Below are positions 873-48,196 of a DNA stretch of 64,000 nt, one piece after another; position 1 is the stretch's first letter, and each line of letters opens with the position of its first letter. Where the stretch lies: NCBI GenBank assembly GCA_963663945.1, contig OY760687.1, forward strand, positions 3,095,387-3,159,386. Direction: 5' to 3'. The stretch is from Dehalococcoidia bacterium (GTDB taxonomy: Bacteria > Chloroflexota > Dehalococcoidia > Lucifugimonadales > UBA3495). The notes below the pieces were generated by a model, which saw nothing but the letters and a program-made list of their open reading frames with translations, did no database searches and had not been told where the DNA came from. A program made the position numbers and the translations under genes.

Positions 873-1286
873 TCAGATCCCCAATGCGGCTACCCCAGCC
901 TTGGCGATGGCTTCGTCGTCGAGCCCGCTGGGCAGGCCGCCCACGCCGATGGCGCCGACCACCACGCCGTCATGGAACACCGCTACTCCCCCGGCCAGCG
1001 CTATCAACTGGGCGTCACCGAAGGACTCCAGCGACCGGCCCGTGCTGCTGAGTTGCTCGGCGAACGCGGCGGTATCCATGGAGCGGACCGCGGATGTGTA
1101 GGCCTTGCGGAGGGCGAAGGTGGGCCTGAGACACCGGTCCATCCGGGCGTAGGCCAGCAGGTTTCCGGCATCGTCCACCACGGCCATATCGACCTTGCGC
1201 CGGTCCGGATCCCGGTTGAAATCGGCGATCATGGCAGTGATGGCGTTCTGAGCCTGTTCCAGGCTGATCATGGATTTGTTGTACAT
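873..1286 (-). CDS. GlcG/HbpS-like haem-binding protein (DUF336)
   Basis: 137 aa. Contains DDAGNLLAYARMD and GGVAVFHDGVVVGAIGVGG blocks typical of GlcG/DUF336. AGGAGA RBS. Confidence 0.85.
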   Translation of the reverse strand: MYNKSMISLEQAQNAITAMIADFNRDPDRRKVDMAVVDDAGNLLAYARMDRCLRPTFALRKAYTSAVRSMDTAAFAEQLSSTGRSLESFGDAQLIALAGGVAVFHDGVVVGAIGVGGLPSGLDDEAIAKAGVAALGI

Positions 1287-1300
1287 GGTTACGTCTCCTT

Positions 1301-1330
1301 GAAATTGGCGTTAACGAAATTGGCGTTGAC
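1301..1330. repeat. Tandem 2 x 15 bp direct repeat (gaaattggcgttaac / gaaattggcgttgac) just upstream of the glcG-like RBS
   Basis: Read directly; one mismatch between the two copies. Confidence 0.8.
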
Positions 1331-1409
1331 AGATCGCGAGGCTCTACTGGACGGGCGATGGGCGCGTGCAGTCAGACGCCGCCCCGACGAGACCGGCCGT
1401 GAGTTGGAT

Positions 1410-2498
1410 TTACCTCCTCCCATACAGGCGGTTGAGATTACCGAGTCGGTTGGGGTCCAGGTCCCTGCCCCGCAGGGCGGGATGGTCAGGGCCGTACCGA
1501 TGAGCGCGGAATACGGCGTTGGCCATGCCCCACTGGGACGGAACGAAGAAGGGGCTGACATATTCCCACACTATCTCGGTTGCCGGCGTAACCTCGAACA
1601 GCCTTCCTTGCTGACCTTCGGTGATGAGGGTGTTGCCGTTGGGCAGGCGTTGGGCCCCGCCGGTGAAGTGGGTGAAGAACGACACCATCGGCCGGCCCTG
1701 GTATTGCCAAACAATTTCGCTGGTCGAGGGATCCACCTCGACAACCCGGGAATAGCTGAGGCCGCGCCGGTGGGACCCGTTGTCCAGCAGCAGCACGTTG
1801 CCATTGTCCAGGTAGGTGGGATGATGCTGGTGGGATATGTTCCCCGGCCCCCACTTCCAGGTGATCTCCCCGGTTGCCCGGTCCACCATCGCCACGGTGT
1901 CAAGAATGCGAAAACTGACCAGGAATGAACTGCCGTCGGGAGACGCCGTCAGGTCGTTGGCGCTTCCCCAGGCATCCCGCCTTTCCAGGGGGCAGATCAC
2001 GTCCGTCTCCGGGTCCAGGTGGTCGGCGGAATGCCAGGCGTTGACCTCGGTCCCGTCGGGAGCAACCTCCACCACCTGGTCGCCAAGCATTTGCTCCGGG
2101 TCGTTGGCGGTGGCGAAACCACCCGAAACCCTGCGGCTCAGGTCGGTGGAAATCCGGTCGCGCTGGAGCAGCATCAGGTTGTTGCCGTTGGGGAGCCGGG
2201 CGTGGCGTCGCAGGCTGGGGTCGTGGTGCTCCCAGACCAGCCGGCCGTCCCAATCCAACTCACGGATATGGTCAGCGCCCGGCGGGTTGGCCCCCAGGTC
2301 ACGGAATAGCATGTTGCCATTGTCCAGCAGGAAACCGTACGCGATACCGCCGGGATAATGCCAACGATGGACGAAGTTGCCCTCCATATCAATAAGGTAG
2401 GCATCATCCCCGCCGTTGGGAGAGAAGAGCGTGTATCCCCGGTGGGCTCCGGACGAGTCATAACGGATCAATCCGGTGGGACGGTGGGACGTGTTCAT
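1410..2498 (-). CDS. Arylsulfotransferase (ASST)-like beta-propeller protein
   Basis: 362 aa. Repeated blade motifs LLDNGNMLF, LPNGNNLML, LDNGNVLLLDNG and LPNGNTLITEG. GAGGAG RBS. Confidence 0.7.
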   Translation of the reverse strand: MNTSHRPTGLIRYDSSGAHRGYTLFSPNGGDDAYLIDMEGNFVHRWHYPGGIAYGFLLDNGNMLFRDLGANPPGADHIRELDWDGRLVWEHHDPSLRRHARLPNGNNLMLLQRDRISTDLSRRVSGGFATANDPEQMLGDQVVEVAPDGTEVNAWHSADHLDPETDVICPLERRDAWGSANDLTASPDGSSFLVSFRILDTVAMVDRATGEITWKWGPGNISHQHHPTYLDNGNVLLLDNGSHRRGLSYSRVVEVDPSTSEIVWQYQGRPMVSFFTHFTGGAQRLPNGNTLITEGQQGRLFEVTPATEIVWEYVSPFFVPSQWGMANAVFRAHRYGPDHPALRGRDLDPNRLGNLNRLYGRR

Positions 2499-2667
2499 GG
2501 GGCCGCTCCTCTGATGTTGCCCGGACCAATCGTGTCGCCCGGACCAATGCCATCAACCGATTTCGCTGCCGGTTCAATCCGTGAGCCGCTGACAGAGGAT
2601 ACCGGGTGTGTGACCGGTGGTAAACTCGGCGCGACCCCGAGACTCAAACCACGCCCGGCGGCAGGAG

Positions 2668-3603
2668 ATGGTTCGAATGCGCATCGCGGTACCCGACCTG
2701 GTGTCCAACTCCTATTTCCCGGCGGTTGCCGCGGTGGATTTGGGGTTCTTCAAGTCCCAGGGAATGGATGTGGAGTTGGAGATGGTCTTCCCGGTGGGCC
2801 GCGCCATGCAGGCGTTGCAGGACGGCGACGTGGACTTCGTGGCGGGTCCTGCCCACGCCACCCCATCCGCGTTCACAGACTGGCAAGGCGCAAAGCTGTT
2901 GGCCGCGCTGTCCCAGCATACCTTCTGGCTGCTGGTGTTGCGCGCCGACCTGGGAGTTCAACCCGGCGACGTCGCGGCGGTCAAGGGCCTGCGTATCGGT
3001 GCGGCCCCGGGGCCGGATGCTGCCTTGCGCCGGCTGCTGGTCGAAGCGGGTGTTGATCCTGAGCGAGACGGTGTCGCGCTGGGCCCGGTGCCCGGCAGCG
3101 GCGACGCCGGCGTGTCCTTCGGCGTCCACGCTGCCCAGGCCCTGCGAGAAGGGATCATCGACGGGTTCTGGGCCAACGCCATGGGAGCAGAGGTAGCAAT
3201 ACGCAGCGGTGTGGGCGCCGTGGCCCTGGATCCCAGGCAGGGTCTCGGCCCGCCGCCCGCCCGGGACTTCACTTTTGCGGCGCTGGTCGCCACCGAAAGG
3301 TTGATTGAACAATCCCCGGCCGCAGCCCAGGGCGCCGTGCTCGCCATCGTGGCGGCGCAAAGCGCGCTGCGGGCCGACCCGTCGCTGGCCGCCGATATTG
3401 GCCGGCGGCTGTTTCCGCCCGACGAGGCCCAGTTGATCGAGGACCTCGTGCGGCGGGACGCTCCCTACTACTCCGCCGAGATTTCGCCCGACTCCGTGGC
3501 CAGCCTCACTGATTTCTGCCACAGTCTCGGCTCGCTCTCCGCAGACGTGGCCTATGAGCAGGTGGTGGCCGTCGACTTCGCCCATCTCTGGACCCAGAGG
3601 TAG
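2668..3603 (+). CDS. NMT1/THI5-like (NitT/TauT-type) solute-binding-fold protein, cytoplasmic
   Basis: Periplasmic-binding-fold composition with no signal peptide. ATG 2668 (or 2677) preferred over track start 2617 because of the GGAG just upstream. Its stop abuts the next gene. Confidence 0.65.
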   Translation: MVRMRIAVPDLVSNSYFPAVAAVDLGFFKSQGMDVELEMVFPVGRAMQALQDGDVDFVAGPAHATPSAFTDWQGAKLLAALSQHTFWLLVLRADLGVQPGDVAAVKGLRIGAAPGPDAALRRLLVEAGVDPERDGVALGPVPGSGDAGVSFGVHAAQALREGIIDGFWANAMGAEVAIRSGVGAVALDPRQGLGPPPARDFTFAALVATERLIEQSPAAAQGAVLAIVAAQSALRADPSLAADIGRRLFPPDEAQLIEDLVRRDAPYYSAEISPDSVASLTDFCHSLGSLSADVAYEQVVAVDFAHLWTQR

Positions 3604-3610
3604 GTGGGTG

Positions 3611-4603
3611 ATGAGAGTCGATATCAGGGTGCCCGTCGGCCTGCCGCTCCCCGAAACTGCCGATTTCATCGCCAAATGCGAAGAGGCCGGATTCTCGGGT
3701 GTTGGCGTCCATGACCATCAGCACAGCGGGCGGGACGTGTTTCTGACCCTGGCCCTGGCCGCCGAGCGGACCTCCCGGCTCACGCTGTACCCCGCGACCT
3801 CCAACCCGGTCACCCGTCACCCGATGGTGCTGGCCTCGCTGGCCCACTCGCTGGAGGAGATTGCGCCGGAGCGCGTGCGCCTGACCGTGGCCCCCGGCTA
3901 CCTCGCCGTGGGCAATATCGGGCGGCCCCGCGCCACCGTGGCGGCCATGCGCCGGTCCATCCTGACCATTCGCCGCCTGCTGAGAGGCGAGACCGTGGAG
4001 TTCAACGGTTTCGAGACTCGTCTGCGCAATGTCAGCGACCCGACCACGCCAGTGCTCATGACCGCGGCTGGCCCACGGATGGTTGAACTGGCCGGCGAGG
4101 TCGCCGACGGCGCGCTGTTGCTGGTCGGCCTCCATCCTCTAGCGGTCAATGCCGCCCGCCGCCGGCTGGAGATCGGAGCGGCACGGTCGGGACGCAGCCT
4201 CGACGGATTCCAGACGATCTTCATCACCCCGACAACGGTATCGGTTGATGGGCCGGCCGCCCGTCGCTTCCCCCAACAGCGGTTCCGGCCGGATCAGCCG
4301 TACCTGAAATACCCCAGCGACTCCAACCTGGTCTGGCTGCGAGAGGCCGGCATCGACCTGGCCGACAACTTCGTCCCCGAAAGCATCAGCAACGCCCAGG
4401 CCGCCGAAATCTGCGACGCCTTCGGTCTGTTCGGCACACCCGGGGAATGCCTTGCCCGGCTCAAGCGGGCACGCGACGAATCGGGCATCGATCACGTTTT
4501 CATCTTTCCCACCCACACCCAGGAGGGTGGTTACGACATGCCGCAACCCGAGGTGGACGCCTTCCGGGAGACCATCATCCCAGGTTTGGCCACCCAGTCC
4601 TGA
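3611..4603 (+). CDS. LLM-class (luciferase-like) flavin/F420-dependent oxidoreductase
   Basis: TIM-barrel LLM pattern (AEEAGFSGVGVHDH..., LTLYPATSNPVTRHP, FGTPGECLARL). ATG 3611 lies 8 nt after the upstream stop. Confidence 0.8.
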   Translation: MRVDIRVPVGLPLPETADFIAKCEEAGFSGVGVHDHQHSGRDVFLTLALAAERTSRLTLYPATSNPVTRHPMVLASLAHSLEEIAPERVRLTVAPGYLAVGNIGRPRATVAAMRRSILTIRRLLRGETVEFNGFETRLRNVSDPTTPVLMTAAGPRMVELAGEVADGALLLVGLHPLAVNAARRRLEIGAARSGRSLDGFQTIFITPTTVSVDGPAARRFPQQRFRPDQPYLKYPSDSNLVWLREAGIDLADNFVPESISNAQAAEICDAFGLFGTPGECLARLKRARDESGIDHVFIFPTHTQEGGYDMPQPEVDAFRETIIPGLATQS

Positions 4604-38524: not shown

Positions 38525-39601
38525 TTATCCGCGCCAGATCCGTCGCATGCGGCGCACGGAATCCAGCCTGCTCTCCGCCAGGATGTCCGCCGCCCGAGCG
38601 GTGGATATCTCCTGCTTCCGCGACGTTGTCAGCACCGCCGACATCTGCTCGTAGATCCGCTCCGTCTGCTGGCGCGAGCGGTCCGGGTTGTAAGGCTGGC
38701 CGATTTCGGCGGCGGCGTTGATGATGCCGCCGGCGTTGATCAGGAAATCAGGGGCATAGACGATCCCGCGCCGATGCAATTCCTCGCCGTCCTCGGCCGT
38801 CATCAGCTGGTTGTTGGCCCCACCGGCCACGATGCTACAACGCAGGCGGTCAATGGTGGCCGAGTTGATGACCCCGCCCAGAGCGCAGGGAGCGAAGATG
38901 TCGCAGTCAACGTCGTAGATCTCGTCGGGACCGACAACCTTGACGCCCATCTGGCGGGCCCGGTCCAGGGCCGACTCGCTGATGTCCGTGACCACGATGC
39001 GAACATCGTCCTCGATCAGATGACCCGCCGTGTGCGTGGCCACCTTTCCGAACCCCTGCATCGCCACGGTGCGCTCACGCAGGTCGTCGGTGCCCCAGAC
39101 GTCGGAAGCGCAGGCCTTCATTCCCATGTAGATCCCGAGGCCGGTCATGACGGATGTGTCTCCGCTGCCGCCCAGCGTAACGTCGAGGCCCACCACGTAT
39201 TCCGTTTCCTGTCGCATCAATTCCAGATCCCGACCCGTGGTTCCAACGTCGGTGGTCGTGAGGTAGCGGCCCCCCAGCGTGTCCACGAACCGACCCCAGG
39301 CGCGCATCAGGGATTCAGTCTTGGCGGTGCGCGGGTCGCCGATGATGACCCCCTTGCCGCCACCCAGATGCAGGCCGGCCGCCGCCGACTTGTAGGTCAT
39401 GGCCCGGGACAGGTTCAGGGCGTCGGCCAGCGCTTCCTGTTCGGTGGCATAGGGCCACATGCGCGTTCCGCCGCATGAAGGTCCCAGGGTGGTGTCGTGG
39501 ATGGCGATGATGCCCCGCAGGCCGGACTCGGGGTCGCTGTACATCGTCACCTGTTCGTGACCCCGGCTGACCATCGTATTCAGTACGTCCATGGTTTCCA
39601 C
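38525..39601 (-). CDS. Leucine (Leu/Phe/Val) dehydrogenase, Glu/Leu/Phe/Val DH family
   Basis: LGGGKGVI catalytic-lysine motif and GFGKVA Rossmann motif. 358 aa. Confidence 0.9.
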   Translation of the reverse strand: METMDVLNTMVSRGHEQVTMYSDPESGLRGIIAIHDTTLGPSCGGTRMWPYATEQEALADALNLSRAMTYKSAAAGLHLGGGKGVIIGDPRTAKTESLMRAWGRFVDTLGGRYLTTTDVGTTGRDLELMRQETEYVVGLDVTLGGSGDTSVMTGLGIYMGMKACASDVWGTDDLRERTVAMQGFGKVATHTAGHLIEDDVRIVVTDISESALDRARQMGVKVVGPDEIYDVDCDIFAPCALGGVINSATIDRLRCSIVAGGANNQLMTAEDGEELHRRGIVYAPDFLINAGGIINAAAEIGQPYNPDRSRQQTERIYEQMSAVLTTSRKQEISTARAADILAESRLDSVRRMRRIWRG

Positions 39602-39865: not shown

Positions 39866-40759
39866 TCATTGCAGTCGGTCGAGCGGGCTCGGTTCCACCC
39901 GCGCCGACGGCGTGCGCTTGGAGAGAAACACGAACGCCCCAACCGCCACGCCAGCAGCCCCGATCAGGGCGGCCAACGCAATCGTTGTCCACAACCAGGG
40001 GCCGCTGCCACTCTTGCCGTTGGCATCGTCGGCAAGCGCCAGCACCTCAACTGCGGTCTGCGGGTACCCATCGTTCATCAACTTGGCGGCCAGGTCCACC
40101 ACGGGTTCAGAAGCGGCGCCATTCTCCGCTCTGGTGGCAAGGATCCGGCGCTGAGCATCCAGGTAAGCGACGCTGGCGGATTGCACGCTGACTTCCAGGC
40201 GGTCCTGGCGTCCGTCCGGGGTGATGACCGTAATCTCCACCAGTCGGAACGGGCGCGGAACCTGAACCTCGTGCTCGTACCCGTCGTTGAGACTGCGAAT
40301 TTTGCCGCTGCGCGGCGTGGCGCCGGCGTGCTTGATCTCGATCTCCATGCCCCCGCGCAGTCCGTGAATCTTGTCGTCCGCCGGGTGAAGGTGGAATGTT
40401 TCCCCCATGCCCGGTTTTTGGGTGACGGTGACCTCCGACTTCCAGCCAGTCAGTTCTGAAACCATAACCAGCGTGGACTCGGTCTCGGTGTTCAGCTTGA
40501 ACTCGCAGCCGCCCTCAACTGCGGTTTCCTGCAGGATGTGGCGGTCTGGATGCGCGTCAACCAGATCGTCGCCGTCCTGGTCGCCATCAACGTCGATCCA
40601 AAACGCGCATTCCCTTTCCGAGATGTCAACGGCCTGGCCGTCCTGCGCTGGCCCGGATGCCCCGGCCGGCAGCGCCAGCGCCAGTGATATCACCAATATG
40701 CCAACTGCGGCCAGGACGGTTTTGGTCCGCACCGATCTTGGTGCGACGGTCTCCATCAC
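39866..40759 (-). CDS. Secreted protein with C-terminal membrane anchor, unknown function
   Basis: Signal peptide (VLAAVGILVISLALALPAGASG) and a C-terminal TM helix (WLWTTIALAALIGAAGVAVGAFVF). Its ATG overlaps the upstream stop (ATGA). Confidence 0.6.
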   Translation of the reverse strand: MMETVAPRSVRTKTVLAAVGILVISLALALPAGASGPAQDGQAVDISERECAFWIDVDGDQDGDDLVDAHPDRHILQETAVEGGCEFKLNTETESTLVMVSELTGWKSEVTVTQKPGMGETFHLHPADDKIHGLRGGMEIEIKHAGATPRSGKIRSLNDGYEHEVQVPRPFRLVEITVITPDGRQDRLEVSVQSASVAYLDAQRRILATRAENGAASEPVVDLAAKLMNDGYPQTAVEVLALADDANGKSGSGPWLWTTIALAALIGAAGVAVGAFVFLSKRTPSARVEPSPLDRLQ

Positions 40760-42707
40760 ACGTTTTCCCGCACTACTGTCACCGCGGTTGCCTGGACGGT
40801 GACGCGGGAACCGGACGAAGGCTGATCGCCGTCAGATTCCAACAGTTCCGGCGGCGGCTTGACCCCATAGTACCGGGCGAGCTCACGCCAGCGGGACAGG
40901 CTGGCAGTCAAGTCACGATAGTTTTTCTCCAGGTCTCCGTAGGTGCTGACGTCCCTGAACCCGTCGCTTGCACGAACTCGTCCCAGCACGAGGATGCTGT
41001 ATTCGATGGGAACGTCGTAATCGATATCACTCAACCTCCACTTCATGGCAGAGGGTTGGCGAGGTCGCGGCACAGTGGACTGGGAATCGTCGTCAGCAGC
41101 GGCCAGGTTGGACTCCCCTGAACGTCCGTCCGCCAATTCGTCCGGGGAGATCACTTTGCTGAGATCGAACGTCATCTCGGAGAACGCTCCGGGGATGTTG
41201 CGGCGGTCGGCGGCAACAAAATCCCGGAGTAGTTCCCGGGAAGGCCGAAACGCATCATTGCTCGTGTTGCGGCTCCAATCTCCGATCGATATCGACATGA
41301 TCTCATCGAAAACCGCTCCCGAGTTGACTTCCAGAGATCCCAGGTCCGGTCGTTTCAAAACCTCATTGCACAATTCCGCCAGTCGCTGGCGCACTATGGC
41401 TACACCGGCATCTCCAATGACTTCCGCGACAGGTCCCTGGATGCCGTTATCGCGCGCAATTTCGGCGGCCTCGATACGCTGGTTCTCGGGCAGTTCAATG
41501 TTGATGCAGAAGTGATCGTTCTTGGCCTTGATGCTGTCGATTTCTTCCGTGGCTTCTTTCGCGCGCCTATAGGCGTCTTCATCGTCCGATTTTGCGGCCC
41601 TCAGCAAGGATTGAGCCAGGTCCTGGTTGCTCTTATTTTTGCCGTTCAACATGCCGATCAAACTGGAGGCCAACGAGATCCCGTTCAACTGGTCGACTTT
41701 GTCGACCAATGTTTGGACGTGATTGGCGACAACGGTGTTCTCTTCGCTGTCCAATAACTGTCTGATGCGATGTTGAGTGAGCAGGCGCAGCAACGTTTCC
41801 TTTTGTTGCGGCAGAGATGCTCGATCCCAGGTAGCAGGTTCCCGGAACCAGGGCAAAGCCACTCGATAACGCAGATACCGGCATGCATCGCTGTACGAGC
41901 GTTCGGATATCACGTGGGCCAGATAGGCGTTCCACCGCTTCCCCTGCTTGAGCTGGACTATTGACTCTGCGCGGTCTCCACCGCCCGCCCCGTTGAGCAG
42001 GCAGGCCGTCGCCTGGGCGGCAGCCCGGTCGAGGGCGGCCCACGCCTTTTCGACGTCCCCGGTGTGAACCGTACCGCCGTCAAAGGCGATATTTATGTCG
42101 AAGCATTGGACGCGCTCATCATCTTCAGGATCTTCCGAGAGCGGCACCCCTCCCAGAACCTCCTGCCGAGCCACGTAGCCTCTGAAGGCGTTGTTGACCG
42201 CAGTGCGGTCCATTTCAGCCTCGTTCGAACCGTGGTAAACCGGCGGGCATAGTTCGATACCCCAAACAACTAACTGATCCGACTTGTTCTGCCCCGCAAA
42301 GTAACGTTGCAACGCCGCGCCCAGATACATCCCCACAGTTCCCGAGGTGGGTCCCTCCGGGCAATACGGGATTACCACTGCCAACTGGTACGAAGACGTA
42401 AGGCCTTTCTCTCGTTTGAAGTTTTCCCACATCCGGTCGGTATCCCGGCAGTATTGCCTGATCTGCCCTCGGCACCAAGCGCCCAATCGCGCCGGTGCGT
42501 CCTCAAGCTCTGCCATATCGGTTGCCAGCGGGTTGATCTGGGTCAGGAACCGCTTGGTGCTGGTGCTATCAGTCTGCATGGACGAACCCGGCGGAGTGTT
42601 ACCGAGTTCGTAAATCTTCCGGCTGCTGCCCCAGTTGCCCCGCACCTTTGCCGCGGTAGCCTGTCGCAACCGGTCGAGATGATAGACGACAATAAGGAAT
42701 GCCTCTT
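40756..42707 (-). pseudogene. C-terminal approx. 650 codons of a large gene (possibly tubulin/FtsZ-like GTPase) interrupted by IS21
   Basis: Frame open from the IS boundary at 42707 down to stop 40756. Contains PEGPTSGTVGMYLGAAL and TAVNNAFRGYVARQEV, which resemble tubulin T4 and NNA motifs (weak). Confidence 0.5.
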
Positions 42708-42765
42708 GCGCCGACTATTCTTGCCGGTTGGGATGGTGTAAATCGTCCGGCACGGAGGTGCCGGA

Positions 42766-44268
42766 TTGATCAAGGACCGACAAGTCAGACTTTTGAGGCA
42801 AAAACGTATGGAAGGCAAGACACAGGAGACGGCGGCCGCCATGTCTGGGATGAGCGTGCGGTCGGCGCGCAAATGGCAGAGTGGCCCGTTGCCGTCGGAG
42901 ACCAAACCGGAGCGCTGGTGGCGCACTCGGTCCGACCCCTTCGACGGGGTGTGGGAAGAGGAGATTGAGCCCCTGCTGCGGGACGACCCCAAGGGCAAGC
43001 TGAAGGCAACGACGATTATCGAATGGCTGGAGGAGCAGCATCCTGGCCAGTTCAGCGCCTCCCAGCTGCGCACCCTGCAACGACGATTACAGGACTGGCG
43101 GGCGCTGAATGGCCCGGATCAGGAGGTTTACTTCCCCCAGGAGCATCCGCCGGGTCGGGAGGCCCAGTTTGATTTCACCCACTGCAGCGCCCTGGGGGTG
43201 ACCGTCGCCGGTGAGCCCTACCCCCACCTGCTGTTTCAGCTGATCCTCAGCCACTCGGGCTGGCGCTACGCGGAGGTCGCCGCCGGCGAGACCTTCCTGG
43301 CCCTCAAGCAGGGATTACAGAATGCGCTCTGGGCCCTGGGCGGCGTACCGGAGGTGGTGCGTTCCGACAATACCTCTGCTGCCACCCACGAGATGAAACG
43401 CAGCCGAGGCCGGGCGCTAAACGACAATTACGCCGCCCTGCTGGACCACTACGGTGTCCGATCCACCCGCATCAATCCTGGCAAGAGCCACGAAAACGGC
43501 GTTGCCGAGCACGCTCACTACCGTTTGAAGGATGCCGTGGACCAGGCTTTGATCATGCGCGGCAGCCGCGATTTCCACACCGCCGACGACTACGCCGGTT
43601 TCGTACGGGAGATGGTGGAGAAGCGAAACCGCCTGGTGCGGGGGAAGCTGGAGCAGGAAATGGCTTGCCTAAGACCCCTGCCGCCAGCCCCCATGCCGGA
43701 ATACGCCAACTACCAGTCCAAGGTGCGCCGGTGGAGTACGATCCAGGTGGCGGGACGCAGCTACAGCGTCCCGTCCCGGCTCATTGGCAAGGTGGTACAG
43801 ATCCGCCTCTATTCCGAGCACGTGGAAGTGTACTACAAGGGCCACTTTGTGGAACGCATGGCGCGCGTGCACGGTGATGGGGAAGTAAACGTCAATTACC
43901 GCCACGTGATCAATTCCCTGGTGCGCAAGCCCGGAGCATTCGCCCGGTACCGCTTCAGGGAGCAGCTCTTTCCCACCCTGCACTTCCGGCTGGCCTACGA
44001 TGCGCTCAGGCAGTGGCGCGGTGAGCGCGCCGACGTGGAGTACGTGCGCATCCTGCACCTGGCGGCCACCACCATGGAGGTCATGGTGGACAGCGCCCTG
44101 TCGCTGCTGCTGGAGACCGGTCAGCCCTTCGACTACGCCGAGGTGCGGGAACTGGCCGAGCCCAGGGTGCCCCAGGCTCCGGTGCTGGTCCTCTCTGGGA
44201 AGCCGGACCTGAAGATCTACGACGGTCTGCTCACGAGCAGTACGGCCATGGTGGGGGTGTGCGCATGA
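42766..44268 (+). CDS. istA: IS21-family transposase IstA
   Basis: 500 aa with an N-terminal HTH and a DDE region (SDNTSA...HENGVAEH). Overlaps istB. Confidence 0.9.
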   Translation: MIKDRQVRLLRQKRMEGKTQETAAAMSGMSVRSARKWQSGPLPSETKPERWWRTRSDPFDGVWEEEIEPLLRDDPKGKLKATTIIEWLEEQHPGQFSASQLRTLQRRLQDWRALNGPDQEVYFPQEHPPGREAQFDFTHCSALGVTVAGEPYPHLLFQLILSHSGWRYAEVAAGETFLALKQGLQNALWALGGVPEVVRSDNTSAATHEMKRSRGRALNDNYAALLDHYGVRSTRINPGKSHENGVAEHAHYRLKDAVDQALIMRGSRDFHTADDYAGFVREMVEKRNRLVRGKLEQEMACLRPLPPAPMPEYANYQSKVRRWSTIQVAGRSYSVPSRLIGKVVQIRLYSEHVEVYYKGHFVERMARVHGDGEVNVNYRHVINSLVRKPGAFARYRFREQLFPTLHFRLAYDALRQWRGERADVEYVRILHLAATTMEVMVDSALSLLLETGQPFDYAEVRELAEPRVPQAPVLVLSGKPDLKIYDGLLTSSTAMVGVCA

Positions 44269-45077
44269 TGGACACCGACACCAGCGTGATCCCGGAGCGC
44301 ATCGGTCAGCTCTGCCGCGAATTCAAGCTGCCCACCATGGGCGCTCAGTCGGTGGCCCGTTTCACCGAGGCTGGCCACGGCGAGGCCCTGTCCACCTTCC
44401 TGGAGGTGCTGGAGCAGGAAGCCGAGGATCGCCGCCACCGGCGCATCAACCGGCTGCGTCAGGCGTCCCGGCTCCCCTCGGGCAAGACCTGGGAGACCTT
44501 CGAGCATCACCGGATGCCCCTCGCTCTACGGCAGCAGATGGACCAACTGGCCCAGGGCAGCTTCGTGGATCACGGCGTCAACGTGCTGGCCTTCGGGCTC
44601 CCCGGCACCGGCAAGACCCACGCGCTCTGCGCTCTGGGACACCGCCTGGTGGAGGCCGGCCACTCCGTCCTCTTCGCACCGGCCTACCGTCTGGTGCAGG
44701 ATCTGCTGGCCGCCAAGCGTGACTTCGACCTGCCCCGACAACTGCGCAAGCTGGACAACTTCGACTTCCTCCTCCTGGACGATCTCGGCTACCTGCCCCA
44801 GGGTACTGAGGAGTCCGAGGTCCTCTTCACCCTCATCGCAGAACGCTACGAACGCCGGTCGTTGGGCATCACGTCCAACCTGGTCTTCTCGGAGTGGGAG
44901 CGCATCTTTGCCAATCCCATGGCCACCGCCGCAGCGATTGACCGGGTGGTTCACCACTCCGTCATCCTGGAATTCGACGTCCCCAGCTACCGGACTGACG
45001 CAGCACAGCAACGCGGCGAGACTGCCGCGGCCGACGCCAACGCTGCGCCTGCCAAGGAGGTGAACCGGCAAAACTAA
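44259..45077 (+). CDS. istB: IS21 helper ATPase IstB
   Basis: Walker A GLPGTGKTH and Walker B LLLLDDLGY. Confidence 0.9.
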   Translation: MRMMDTDTSVIPERIGQLCREFKLPTMGAQSVARFTEAGHGEALSTFLEVLEQEAEDRRHRRINRLRQASRLPSGKTWETFEHHRMPLALRQQMDQLAQGSFVDHGVNVLAFGLPGTGKTHALCALGHRLVEAGHSVLFAPAYRLVQDLLAAKRDFDLPRQLRKLDNFDFLLLDDLGYLPQGTEESEVLFTLIAERYERRSLGITSNLVFSEWERIFANPMATAAAIDRVVHHSVILEFDVPSYRTDAAQQRGETAAADANAAPAKEVNRQN

Positions 45078-45108
45078 TCGACGATAAATCGGCAAGAATG
45101 GTTGACGC

Positions 45109-45253
45109 GGGACACGAGATCCTCATCGCTGTGGTCTATGGCCCAGGGAGCCAGCTGTTCGACGCCCTGCGCGAGAAATTCATCCACGAAGTAGGGCAAG
45201 CTCTCAAGTCCCGCCTTGCCAGCCGCCATCACTCGTACTGCTCCAATAGCCAT
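45109..45253 (-). pseudogene. N-terminal 48 codons of the IS21-interrupted gene
   Basis: GGAGG RBS plus ATG (rc 45251-45253): MAIGAVRVMAAGKAGLESLPYFVDEFLAQGVEQLAPWAIDHSDEDLVS. Joins in frame to 42707 if the IS is excised at its IR ends. Confidence 0.5.
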
Positions 45254-45809
45254 AATGCCTCCGCTTCGTTCAGGGGATGCCAGTCAATAACGGAAATAAA
45301 CGACTAATTCACTTGGGGGGTTGACCCGTCAGATCCCAGACGTCCGCTGGAACCGTCGAGGGTCAGGCGCTCACGACACTTTGATCTGCGTGTCGGCGCG
45401 TGATGGGTGTAAATTCCTGCCAGTAGCTGTGCATGCTGCTTCACCCCGGCGGCTAGTGTCTCGAAAACCACACGGCATCGACTCACCACCGATTCCATCG
45501 CCGAGTCGAATCCTCCACCGGAACGAATCCTAGGCAGCCGACCGTGAAAAGTCTGTGCAACTCTGTATTTGCACACGCACCATTTATTCCGTGCACGAAA
45601 TCGAAATTGCAATGGAACCCTTGCATAACTTTTGTTACAAAAATGCGCGCTGCTAACGGCGGTTTGGTCACAAATTGGCACAATTTGAGGCCATTATGTG
45701 ACCTAAAATGCCGACTAAAGACAGGCCGCGTCGGTCACAACCCTACCGAACCCATCCCGCCGCGCTGCTCCCGGCGCCAGCAGATTGCCCGCCCCGGAAA
45801 CGCCGCCGC

Positions 45810-45868: not shown

Positions 45869-48196
45869 ATGCCACAATCGACCGAAAACACGCTGGTTCT
45901 CCCCGTCGCCGGGATGACTTGTGCGGCGTGCGTGTACCACGTCGGCGAGGCGCTGCGCTCCGTTGACGGGGTGAGCGAGGTCAGTATCAACCTCGCCACC
46001 GAGCGGGCGACGATCAGCCTGGACGACGGCGATGCCGCCGGTACGCCTGACCTGGAGACATTGGCCAGGGCCGTTGCCGACGCCGGTTACCGTCTCGATA
46101 CCAACCCCCAATTGGCGGCTGACGGCGGCAGAGGTGACGGGCCGCGGGCCCAAGAGGAAAAACGCGTCCGGGTCCGGTTCATCTTCGCAGCCCTGAGCGG
46201 GGGCGCGCTGCTGCTTGGCAGCTTTCCCGCGTTGCCCTGGGTCTCCGTATTGTTCGCGATGGGGTGGTGGTACCCGGTGCTGTTGTGGGCAGTAGCCACC
46301 CTGGTGCAGTTCTGGGCCGGCTGGTCGTTCTACACGGCGGGCTGGGCCGGCCTTCGGCGGTTGCGGCCCAACATGCACACGCTGATCGCCCTGGGGACGT
46401 CGGTGGCGTACGGGTACAGCGTAGTTGTCATTGTTTTGACGATGCTCGCTCCGGGCGCGCTGGGTTCGCCGGGCGCGCACCAGTTGCACTTCGATATGGC
46501 CGCCATAATCGTCGCGCTGATCCTGTTGGGACGCTGGCTGGAGGCCCGTGCGTTGTCCCGCACTTCGGGCGCCATCGAGAGGCTGCTGGATCTGCGGCCC
46601 CAAACGGCGCACCTCATGGCCGCGGACGGCTCCATATCAGATGTGCCAATTGATCAGGTTGAAACCGGTGACACCCTGGCGGTTCGCCCGGGCGAGCAGA
46701 TTCCCACTGACGGCGATGTGACCAGCGGCGCAACCATCGTCGACCAGTCAGCGGTGACCGGCGAGAGCATGCCGGCTGAAAAGTCTGTCGGCGATTCCGT
46801 GTTCGCCGGCACCCTGAACGAAACCGGAGCCGTACTCATCCGCGCCACCCGGGTCGGCGCGGACACGACGCTGGCCCAGGTGATTCGGCTGGTGGAAGAA
46901 GCCCAGGGCTCGGCGGCCCCGGTGCAGCGTCTGGCCGATCGGGTTGCGGCCTGGTTCGTGCCGGCGGTGGGTCTGATCGCGCTGGCGGCAGCGATACTCT
47001 GGCTGTTCCTCGGGCCGGACCCGTCGGTGCGGTACGCAATGCTGACCCTGGTCGCGGTTTTCATCATCGCGTGCCCGTGCGCGCTGGGCTTGGCAACTCC
47101 CACCGCCATCATCGTCGGGGTGGGCAGAAGCGCGGAACGAGGCATCCTGATCCGCAGCGCCGCCGCGTTGGAAACCGCCCACCGCGTGGACGTGGTTGCC
47201 TTGGACAAAACCGGAACCCTCACCACCGGTCAACCGGAGGTGACGGAGGTCGTGACCGCCGCAGGCGTCTCACCTACCGACGTGCTGCGTTACGCGGCCT
47301 CGGTTGAAACCCTGTCGGAACACCCCATCGGTCGAGCCGTGCTGCGTCGGGCTCAATTCGACGGTCTGGCGGTCACGCCGTCAACCGATTTCGTTGCCCA
47401 CGCCGGCGCCGGCGTGACCGCTGTGATGGCCGAGAAAGGAATAGCGGTCGGCAACTCAGCACTGATGGAGAAGGTCGGCGCGGCGCCGGACGCCGAGCTT
47501 ACTGCGGCCGCAACACGGCTCGCGGAGAGCGGCAACACGCCCATGTTCGTGGCCCGAGGCGGCCTTGTTGTCGGCGTGATCGCAGTCGCCGACAAGGTCA
47601 AGTCAGGGGCGCCCGCGGCGGTTGCGGCTCTGCATGCGATGGGTGTGCGGACGGTGATGCTCTCTGGAGATCGCCCGGAGGTGGCGTCGGCAGTGGCTTC
47701 AGAGTGCGATATCGACGATTACCACGCCGGCATGATGCCGGCCGACAAGGCGGAAGCCATCGCCAGGATGCAGCACGAAGGCCACACCGTGGCCATGGTG
47801 GGCGACGGGATCAATGACGCGCCGGCGCTGGCCCGGGCCAACGTCGGGGTGGCCATGGGCGGCGGAACCGACATCGCCCGGGAAACTGCGGACGTCACGC
47901 TGATGCGGGATGACCTCATGGGCGTGGCCACCGCGCTGAGGATGTCTCGCAACACGATGCGCACCATCCGGCAGAATCTGTTCTGGGCCTTCTTCTACAA
48001 CACGTTGCTGATCCCGGTGGCGGCGGGAGCGCTGTATCCGGTGTTCGCCGCGCTGGGCGGCGTCCCGTCAGGGCTGCTCTTCTTCTTCGGCGATGCCGGG
48101 TTCCTCAATCCCATCCTGGCCGCGCTGGCCATGGCTTTCAGCTCAGTCAGCGTGGTGAGCAACTCGCTGCGGCTGCGACGGGCCAACCTGGAGTGA
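45869..48196 (+). CDS. copA: Copper-translocating P1B-type ATPase
   Basis: GMTCAACV HMA domain, CPCALGLATP, DKTGTLT, GDGINDAP. Confidence 0.9.
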   Translation: MPQSTENTLVLPVAGMTCAACVYHVGEALRSVDGVSEVSINLATERATISLDDGDAAGTPDLETLARAVADAGYRLDTNPQLAADGGRGDGPRAQEEKRVRVRFIFAALSGGALLLGSFPALPWVSVLFAMGWWYPVLLWAVATLVQFWAGWSFYTAGWAGLRRLRPNMHTLIALGTSVAYGYSVVVIVLTMLAPGALGSPGAHQLHFDMAAIIVALILLGRWLEARALSRTSGAIERLLDLRPQTAHLMAADGSISDVPIDQVETGDTLAVRPGEQIPTDGDVTSGATIVDQSAVTGESMPAEKSVGDSVFAGTLNETGAVLIRATRVGADTTLAQVIRLVEEAQGSAAPVQRLADRVAAWFVPAVGLIALAAAILWLFLGPDPSVRYAMLTLVAVFIIACPCALGLATPTAIIVGVGRSAERGILIRSAAALETAHRVDVVALDKTGTLTTGQPEVTEVVTAAGVSPTDVLRYAASVETLSEHPIGRAVLRRAQFDGLAVTPSTDFVAHAGAGVTAVMAEKGIAVGNSALMEKVGAAPDAELTAAATRLAESGNTPMFVARGGLVVGVIAVADKVKSGAPAAVAALHAMGVRTVMLSGDRPEVASAVASECDIDDYHAGMMPADKAEAIARMQHEGHTVAMVGDGINDAPALARANVGVAMGGGTDIARETADVTLMRDDLMGVATALRMSRNTMRTIRQNLFWAFFYNTLLIPVAAGALYPVFAALGGVPSGLLFFFGDAGFLNPILAALAMAFSSVSVVSNSLRLRRANLE

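What the first reader, a model, noticed from the sequence alone, without database searches (positions are those of the whole stretch)
40756..45253. IS21 element splits a large gene; the flanks rejoin in frame at the inverted-repeat ends
A minus-strand ORF with a good RBS begins at 45253 (MAIGAVRVMAAGKAGLES...DEDLVS) and runs into the right end of the IS. The frame of the 637-codon ORF on the left side stays open up to the left IR. Deleting 42708-45108 (IRs match 16/19) joins ...DLVS-Q-EAFLIVVYHLDRLRQATAAK... with no frameshift, giving a 698-aa protein. I could not find a target-site duplication, so the exact ends, or a more complex rearrangement, remain open.
Basis: seen in the sequence. Interest (0 to 1): 0.6.

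Follow-up and report, generated by a model that had tools for sequence, protein, structure and literature searches.

The report
IS21 insertion splits a tubulin-like gene
An ordinary, intact IS21-family mobile element (2,435 bp, with a 5-bp target duplication) has recently jumped into a 685-codon gene of a Dehalococcoidia bacterium. The event is routine, but the gene it knocked out seems to encode an unannotated, very divergent tubulin/FtsZ-like protein.

Summary
The core observation is right. An IS21-family element (istA and istB) sits inside a minus-strand gene, and uninterrupted homologues prove that the two flanking pieces are one gene.

An empty site in a metagenome contig (L001) and 61 complete related IS copies place the element at 42680-45114. 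It is 2,435 bp long, runs 5'-TG...CA-3', and is flanked by a perfect 5-bp target-site duplication, CGAGA, at 42675-42679 and 45115-45119.

The resulting 698-aa protein therefore carries 13 spurious residues (VSQEAFLIVVYHL). Its in-frame join is a coincidence, because 39 extra bases happen to be retained.

Removing the IS and one duplication copy restores a 685-aa ORF. It is 678/685 identical to the intact homologue P0001, which reads ...DEDL|DRLRQ...

This is a simple, recent, strain-specific insertion by a new member of a known IS family, so it is ordinary.

The by-product is more interesting. The disrupted gene has no Pfam, NCBIfam or PADLOC match. A confident AlphaFold model nevertheless hits only tubulins, CetZ and PhuZ. 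Candidate T1, T4 and T7 loops are conserved, and the gene is translationally coupled to a bitopic membrane protein.

The parts
42680..45114 (+). Complete IS21-family insertion sequence, 2,435 bp, with termini 5'-TGATAGACG...GCGGGACA-3'
   Evidence: The empty-site contig L001 lacks exactly this DNA. Homology with 61 complete copies from Dehalococcoidia/Chloroflexota MAGs starts and stops at these bases.
42675..42679 (.). Left copy of the 5-bp target-site duplication CGAGA
   Evidence: It is identical to 45115-45119 and is present once in the empty site L001. Of 61 related copies, 38 have exact 5-bp duplications.
45115..45119 (.). Right copy of the 5-bp target-site duplication CGAGA
42680..42703 (+). 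Outer left terminal repeat L1 (TGATAGACGACAATAAGGAATGCC)
   Evidence: It is conserved in 27 distinct left ends. It shares TG, CG.CAA and TGCC with R1 in the same register.
42708..42729 (+). Inner left repeat L2 (GCGCCGACTATTCTTGCCGGTT).
   Evidence: It is 82% complementary to 45087-45108 and 81% to 45063-45083. Its CG box lies 22 bp after the CG box of L1.
45063..45083 (+). Inner right repeat R2
   Evidence: Its CG box lies 24 bp from the CG box of R1.
45091..45114 (+). Outer right terminal repeat R1, ending in CA
   Evidence: It is conserved in 26 distinct right ends.
42766..44268 (+). istA, IS21-family transposase, 500 aa
   Evidence: NF033546 scores 207 bits (cutoff 160). It also matches PF22483 and rve. 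It is 77-93% identical to 80 copies in MAGs and at most 45% identical to annotated plasmid istA genes.
44259..45077 (+). istB, AAA+ helper ATPase, 272 aa. It overlaps the istA stop codon; an ATG at 44265 forms ATGA with that stop.
   Evidence: PF01695 at 1.4e-49; NF038214 at 222 bits (cutoff 200). The overlap is read from the sequence.
45120..45253 (-). 5' piece of the interrupted gene: the start codon and the first ~45 native codons, including the candidate T1 loop AAGKAG. In the window the frame runs on into the IS and stops at 45074.
45258..45262 (-). GGAGG ribosome-binding site, 4 nt upstream of the ATG
   Evidence: read from the sequence
40756..42679 (-). 3' piece of the interrupted gene, native codons ~46-685 plus the stop. 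It has no credible start codon of its own; the ORF list begins it at TTG 42669, which is native Leu49.
39866..40759 (-). Downstream, translationally coupled gene (GTGA overlap) of 297 aa. It has an N-terminal signal-like hydrophobic segment and a C-terminal membrane anchor. The insertion probably has a polar effect on it.
   Evidence: Hydropathy and the start/stop overlap. The same gene pair is conserved in L001, L082 and L084.

Best explanation
A single, intact copy of an unnamed IS21-family insertion sequence (2,435 bp; istA transposase plus istB helper ATPase) transposed into codon 46/47 of a chromosomal 685-codon gene.

It inserted by the usual staggered-cut mechanism and duplicated 5 bp of target (CGAGA).

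The insertion separates the first 46 codons, with promoter, RBS and the candidate nucleotide-binding T1 loop, from the remaining 639 codons. Those codons have no start signals of their own. The gene is therefore inactivated, and the co-translated downstream membrane-protein gene is probably silenced by polarity (inferred).

The event is recent and strain-specific. Both duplication copies are identical, the IS genes are intact, and the restored ORF has no frameshift or stop. A 98%-identical contig from a metagenome carries the unoccupied site.

For: - IS identity: (both NCBIfam equivalog cutoffs passed).
- Exact ends and duplication: blastn of empty-site contig L001, junction print-out, and end alignment of 80 loci.
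- 38 of 61 complete copies have exact 5-bp duplications and 5 have 6-bp duplications.
- The L1/L2 and R1/R2 repeats are 22 and 24 bp apart, the element ends in CA, and the duplication is 5 bp. This matches what PMC10122671 describes for IS21/IS5376.
- One gene, not two: 103 homologues, most of them full length. P0001 to P0006 all read ...DHS..(L/I)D.L... across the junction.
- Restored ORF: 685 aa, 678/685 identical to P0001, with 7 synonymous and 7 non-synonymous codon differences.
- Conserved synteny (SecA, YHS, Cu-ATPase | gene | 296-aa gene | ELFV dehydrogenase) appears in L082 and L084 without an IS.
- None of 80 other IS copies lies in this gene.
Against: - Loss of function is inferred, not shown. 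One sigma-70-like match (TTTACA-17-AATAGT, 42742->42714, minus strand) points out of the IS left end towards the 3' piece. However, one such match is what shuffled sequence gives, and no RBS precedes any in-frame start.
- The source genome's other IS copies were not available, so activity in this strain is not shown.
- The terminal inverted repeats proper match only 12/26. The ends are therefore defined by comparison with other copies, not by their own symmetry.
Confidence: 0.95

Rival explanations
1. One reading: the IS spans 42708-45108, bounded by the 16/19 (18/22) inverted repeat. Its removal rejoins the flanks into a 698-aa protein, and no target duplication means a possibly complex rearrangement.
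For: The repeat is real, and deleting 42708-45108 leaves an open frame.
Against: - The empty site L001 and all close homologues lack the 13 extra residues.
- 61 other copies extend 28 bp further on the left and 6 bp further on the right.
- A perfect 5-bp duplication flanks the true ends.
Confidence: 0.02
2. The 59-codon and 637-codon ORFs are separate genes that merely flank an IS. The apparent continuity is chance.
For: None beyond the ORF list, which calls them separately.
Against: The N-terminal 46 residues are the best-conserved stretch of a family of ~650-720-aa proteins, and they are contiguous with the rest in every intact homologue.
Confidence: 0.01
3. Assembly artefact: a repeated IS was placed here wrongly by the assembler, and the gene is intact in the real genome.
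For: The IS family is highly repeated in related MAGs, with at least 22 loci in OZ253486.1 alone. Contigs often break at its ends, as in L014 and L018.
Against: A misjoin would not create a perfect 5-bp duplication of the target exactly at both conserved termini. Both junctions are base-precise relative to the empty site.
Confidence: 0.03
4. The insertion is tolerated or functional: the 3' piece is still expressed from an outward promoter in the IS left end, as an N-terminally truncated protein.
For: One promoter-like site in the IS left end faces the 3' piece. The 3' ORF is still open.
Against: - The promoter match is at chance level (1 found, 0.8 expected).
- No Shine-Dalgarno sequence precedes TTG 42669.
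- The truncated product would lack strand S1 and the nearly invariant AAGKAG loop.
Confidence: 0.05

Closest known systems
IS21 / IS5376 (IS21 family; IstA transposase and IstB AAA+ regulator)
   Same: - istA and istB are two overlapping genes.
- Length is about 2.4 kb, with terminal TG...CA.
- Each end is built of two direct repeats about 23 bp apart, each repeat having two GC-rich boxes separated by AT-rich DNA.
- The target duplication is 5 bp and there is no strong target consensus.
Sources: compared with PMC10122671.
   Different: - IstA is at most 45% identical to any istA annotated on PLSDB plasmids. By the usual ISfinder convention (my knowledge) it would be a new IS.
- Its 80 closest copies are all in Dehalococcoidia, SAR202 or Chloroflexota MAGs.
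- The outer repeats L1 and R1 are unusually dissimilar (12/26).
SSO1376, the FtsZ-like gene of Sulfolobus solfataricus disrupted by a transposon (Makarova & Koonin 2010, PMC2875224)
   Same: It is a divergent FtsZ/tubulin-superfamily gene found interrupted by a recent transposon insertion while keeping its motifs.
   Different: It is a different organism, a different protein family and a different element. SSO1376 was recognised by sequence, whereas the gene here is recognised only by predicted fold.
FtsZl1 (Pfam Tubulin_2, PF13809) and FtsZl2 families (Makarova & Koonin 2010)
   Same: They are long, highly divergent tubulin/FtsZ-like proteins with an N-terminal GTPase-like domain and non-canonical C-terminal regions. 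They occur alongside membrane proteins and are proposed to act in membrane remodelling.
   Different: - None of 60 family members hits PF13809 or PF00091, even at E<=1.
- There is no vWA, P-loop GTPase, kinase or OmpA neighbour. The unit here is two genes, paired with a bitopic membrane protein.
- The T4 loop reads CPEGPTSGT rather than GGGTG(S/T)G.

Membership tests
IS21 family of insertion sequences | Two consecutive genes: istA (DDE transposase) followed by istB (AAA+ helper ATPase) | tested here: met
   NF033546 scores 207.4 bits (cutoff 160). NF038214 scores 222.3 bits (cutoff 200). PF01695 matches at 1.4e-49. The genes overlap at 44259-44268.
IS21 family of insertion sequences | Termini 5'-TG...CA-3', with the 3' CA cleaved by IstA | tested here: met
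   The ends TGATAGAC...GGGACA were defined by the empty site and 61 copies. The feature is described in PMC10122671.
IS21 family of insertion sequences | Each terminal region is made of two or more direct repeats (L1/L2, R1/R2) about 23 bp apart, each with two conserved GC-rich boxes | tested here: met
   L1 is at 42680-42703, L2 at 42708-42729, R2 at 45063-45083 and R1 at 45091-45114. The CG..A and TGCC(G) boxes are conserved across copies, with spacings of 22 and 24 bp.
IS21 family of insertion sequences | Short target-site duplication (5 bp for IS5376; 4-8 bp in the family, from my knowledge) | tested here: met
   CGAGA is present on both sides. Among 61 copies, 38 have 5-bp and 5 have 6-bp duplications.
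IS21 family of insertion sequences | Catalytic DDE triad intact, and transposition activity | not tested
   IstA is full length relative to 80 homologues. The rve match is just below Pfam's cutoff (30.2 vs 32.6 bits). The residues were not mapped, and activity cannot be tested here.
Tubulin/FtsZ superfamily (for the interrupted gene) | Tubulin/FtsZ fold | tested here: met
   The AF2 model has pLDDT 88.6 and pTM 0.89. In Foldseek against PDB, all top 50 hits are tubulins, gamma-tubulin, CetZ, OdinTubulin or Asgard tubulin; the best E is 1.9e-5, probability 1.00, TM (target) about 0.5, and 158 hits have E<=1e-3. Seven of the eight BFVD hits with E<=0.01 are phage tubulin/PhuZ, where a name is given. 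This compares a predicted structure, not a solved one.
Tubulin/FtsZ superfamily (for the interrupted gene) | Signature T4 loop GGGTG(S/T)G and glycine-rich T1 loop | tested here: inconclusive
   At the topologically equivalent places, after strands 3-11 and 143-150, the family has the nearly invariant AAGKAG and the invariant C-P-E-G-P-T-S-G-T. Remote relatives have GQAG and DGQTSG. These are similar to the canonical signature but not identical.
Tubulin/FtsZ superfamily (for the interrupted gene) | Sequence-detectable homology (Pfam PF00091 Tubulin, PF12327 FtsZ_C, PF13809 Tubulin_2) | tested here: not met
   No such hit was found for any of 60 members at E<=1 or for 5 remote relatives. An HMM search against PDB sequences found nothing.
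Tubulin/FtsZ superfamily (for the interrupted gene) | T7-loop acidic residue after core helix H7; GTP-dependent polymerisation | not testable with these tools
   A candidate D280-x-x-E283 (nearly invariant and invariant) sits in the loop between helices 254-273 and 281-291. It was assigned by eye only, and biochemistry is needed.

The most novel reading that the evidence does not exclude
The gene knocked out by the IS founds an unrecognised, narrowly distributed branch of the tubulin/FtsZ superfamily.
- It is found only in about 50 representative clusters among 1.84 billion, all where named from Chloroflexota/Dehalococcoidia.
- It is invisible to Pfam, NCBIfam and HMM searches.
- It has divergent T1, T4 and T7 loops.
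- It works with a co-translated bitopic membrane protein, whose short cytoplasmic tail would tether the filament.

The window would then hold a natural null allele, showing that the system is dispensable.
Probability: 0.5. Interest if true: 0.6.

Novelty: new member of a known kind. Interest (0 to 1): 0.3.

Why it matters
As an IS insertion it matters little. It is a textbook gene disruption by a new but typical IS21-family element that has multiplied in marine and sponge-type Dehalococcoidia MAGs. It is useful mainly for annotation: the true ends, the duplication, and a pseudogene call instead of two 'hypothetical proteins'.

The wider value lies in the target. It is a conserved two-gene unit whose large protein is predicted, with high confidence, to have a tubulin-like fold, yet it escapes every sequence-family library tested.

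If confirmed, it adds a bacterial lineage to the FtsZ/tubulin superfamily. Surveys seeded with PF00091 would have missed it. The insertion also supplies a natural knock-out for comparison with the intact allele in L001.

Tried and rejected
- Other copies of the IS or its ends inside the window: none.
- Pfam, NCBIfam and PADLOC on the interrupted protein and its neighbour: no hits.
- phmmer/hmmsearch against PDB sequences: only noise.
- A whole-library profile search to bridge the family to known tubulin families. It found only 51 clusters. The four remote relatives also lack Pfam domains.
- Recurrent disruption of the same gene. Split cluster members (P0120/P0121, P0129/P0132) turned out to be frameshifts in 2x-10x long-read contigs, not IS insertions. 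None of 80 IS loci contains the gene.
- Target-site preference: there is no consensus around 38 sites.
- Outward promoter from the IS: one match, at chance level.
- Literature search for a described Dehalococcoidia tubulin-like family of this kind: nothing found. The CetZ-like Chloroflexota proteins in PMC9871819 were collected with PF00091, which this family does not hit.
Full report
**What is in the sequence**

Between 42680 and 45114 the window carries two overlapping plus-strand genes.
- The first (42766-44268, 500 aa) passes NCBI's equivalog model for IS21-family transposases: NF033546, 207 bits against a cutoff of 160. It also hits Mu-transposase C-terminal and rve domains.
- The second (44259-45077, 272 aa) passes the model for the IS21 helper ATPase IstB: NF038214, 222 bits against a cutoff of 200, and PF01695 at 1.4e-49.

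On the minus strand, an ORF with a GGAGG site 4 nt before its ATG starts at 45253 and runs into the element. A 637-codon ORF ends at 40756.

**Are the two pieces one gene?**

Yes. The closest, P0001 (685 aa), and the next five all read straight through the junction as ...PWAIDHSDEDL-DRLRQATAAK... or close variants of it.

**The exact ends**

The contig that encodes P0001 (L001, an ENA metagenome scaffold of 4,249 bp) is an empty site.
- Its bases 1-1123 match window 46236-45115 at 93% identity.
- Its bases 1118-4249 match window 42680-39568 at 98% identity.
- The two matches overlap by six bases, and nothing corresponds to the DNA in between.

A scan of species-representative genomes with IstA gave 80 loci, all in Dehalococcoidia, SAR202 or Chloroflexota MAGs, at 77-93% protein identity.

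Aligned to the window, their similarity begins at the T of TGAT(A/T)(A/G)ACGACAAT and stops at ...GTTGACGCGGGACA, whatever the flanks are. That resolves the one-base ambiguity of the empty-site comparison:
- The element is 42680-45114, 2,435 bp, 5'-TG...CA-3'.
- It is flanked by a perfect 5-bp duplication, CGAGA, at 42675-42679 and 45115-45119.

Among 61 complete related copies with distinct flanks, 38 have exact 5-bp duplications, 5 have 6-bp duplications and 18 have none that is exact. The insertion sites show no sequence consensus.

Each end of the element holds two direct copies of a roughly 20-bp motif, CG.C(A/G)A, then 8-10 AT-rich bases, then TGCCG.
- L1 is at 42680-42703 and L2 at 42708-42729.
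- R2 is at 45063-45083 and R1 at 45091-45114.
- The spacings are 22 and 24 bp.

This is the architecture reported for IS21/IS5376: terminal repeats made of L1/L2 and R1/R2 about 23 bp apart, each with two GC-rich boxes; a terminal CA; 5-bp duplications; and no strong target specificity (PMC10122671).

The outer repeats L1 and R1 are poorly alike (12/26), whereas L2 resembles R1 well (18/22).

That left 28 bp of the left end, 6 bp of the right end and one duplication copy inside the 'restored' gene. This is 39 bp, or 13 codons, which happen to contain no stop. The in-frame join is real arithmetic but it is a coincidence.

Removing 42680-45119 instead gives a 2,058-bp ORF of 685 codons. It is 678/685 identical to P0001, with 7 synonymous and 7 non-synonymous codon differences and no frameshift.

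**Interpretation**

This is a simple insertion by staggered cleavage of the target, and no rearrangement is needed.
- It is recent: the duplication copies are identical, the IS genes are intact, and the gene fragments are undamaged.
- It is strain-specific: the empty allele exists in L001, related contigs L082 and L084 carry the same neighbourhood without an IS, and none of the other 80 IS copies lies in this gene.

The insertion falls after codon 46, so the promoter, RBS and first 46 residues are cut off from the remaining 639 codons. The 3' piece has no Shine-Dalgarno sequence. The single promoter-like match that points out of the IS left end is what shuffled sequence gives.

I therefore infer a null allele. 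I also infer a polar effect on the next gene (39866-40759), whose start overlaps the stop codon (GTGA). Both inferences are untested.

An assembly artefact is unlikely, because a misjoin would not create a base-precise duplication at both conserved termini.

**Comparison with known elements**

All sequence-testable defining features of the IS21 family are met (see the membership table). IstA is at most 45% identical to any istA annotated on PLSDB plasmids. The element is therefore a new member of a known family.

It has multiplied in some MAGs, with at least 22 of the 80 retained loci coming from the single chromosome OZ253486.1. ISfinder itself could not be queried.

**The interrupted gene**

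The interrupted gene is the more interesting item. It has no hit in Pfam, NCBIfam or PADLOC, and none to PDB sequences. Its homologues are named only 'hypothetical protein'.

An AlphaFold2 model built on 60 homologues is confident: pLDDT 88.6, pTM 0.89.
- In Foldseek against the PDB, every one of the top 50 matches is a tubulin-family protein: beta, alpha or gamma tubulin, CetZ, OdinTubulin or Asgard tubulin. The best E is 1.9e-5, the probability 1.00, TM normalised to the target is about 0.5, and 158 hits have E<=1e-3.
- Against viral models, the best matches are phage tubulins and PhuZ.

The most conserved residues sit where tubulin's nucleotide loops are.
- AAGKAG follows the first strand, as the T1 loop would. 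Remote relatives have GQAG, as tubulin does.
- CPEGPTSGT follows strand 143-150, as the T4 loop would. Compare the signature GGGTG(S/T)G.
- D280-x-x-E283 lies in the loop after the long helix 254-273, a candidate T7 loop.

The T7 assignment is by eye only.

Profile methods do not see the relationship. I therefore say that the protein has a predicted tubulin-like fold and do not file it as a member.

The family is small: 51 representative clusters at E<=1e-3 among 1.84 billion.

It is always followed by a ~296-aa protein with a signal-like N-terminus, a ~220-residue external domain, a C-terminal membrane anchor and a 17-residue cytoplasmic tail.

This differs from the FtsZl1 and FtsZl2 families of Makarova and Koonin (PMC2875224). 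FtsZl1 is Pfam Tubulin_2 and sits in vWA/GTPase/OmpA operons, while FtsZl2 has no conserved neighbours. The same paper notes a Sulfolobus FtsZ-like gene that is also split by a transposon, which is a close parallel to the present case.

**Verdict**

- Novelty: a new member of a known kind.
- Interest for the insertion alone is low.
- The overall score is raised somewhat because the insertion marks, and naturally knocks out, a probable new tubulin-like family.

Noticed in passing
window 40756-42679 and 45120-45253 (restored 685-aa protein = P0001): The interrupted gene has no family annotation anywhere, but a confident AF2 model matches only tubulin-family structures (PDB and BFVD). Candidate T1 (AAGKAG), T4 (CPEGPTSGT) and T7 (DxxE at 280-283) loops are conserved. 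The family has only ~51 representative clusters among 1.84 billion proteins.
   Followed up: partly
window 39866-40759 (-): A conserved, translationally coupled partner gene of 297 aa. It has a signal-like N-terminus (AGA|S), an external domain, a C-terminal transmembrane anchor and a 17-residue cytoplasmic tail. It has no family hit. It may be a membrane tether for the tubulin-like protein.
   Followed up: partly
L036 5501-7308 (also ends in L010, L037, L063, L067): A second element of ~1.8 kb carries the same outer termini (L1 TGATAGACGACAATAAGGAATGCC... and ...GTTGACGCGGGACA). Its inner repeats are different (CCTGTTGCCTCA..GAATGTTACCG), and it holds a fragmented integrase-like gene on the opposite strand. 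It may be a relative or a chimera that shares IstA recognition ends.
   Followed up: no
L012, L035-L053, L066-L074 (chromosome OZ253486.1): The IS family has expanded massively in some Dehalococcoidia MAGs. At least 22 of the 80 retained loci come from one 4.5-Mb chromosome, in two or three subfamilies with distinct L1-L2 spacer sequences.
   Followed up: partly
L083 4685-6726; L084 4006-6044: Homologues of the tubulin-like gene are called as two pieces in some long-read metagenome contigs. Neighbouring genes (for example aconitase in L083) are fragmented too, so these look like low-coverage frameshift errors rather than real pseudogenes.
   Followed up: partly
window 45869-48196 (+), 38525-39601 (-), and L082, L084: The neighbourhood (SecA, YHS protein, copper P-type ATPase | tubulin-like gene | membrane partner | Glu/Leu/Phe/Val dehydrogenase | DUF3179 genes | peptide ABC transporter) is syntenic in contigs whose tubulin-like protein is only 61-67% identical. 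This is a stable chromosomal locus, not a mobile island.
   Followed up: partly
window 42714-42742 (-): A sigma-70-like site (TTTACA-17-AATAGT) inside the IS left end points outward towards the 3' gene fragment. One such site is expected by chance in this region.
   Followed up: yes
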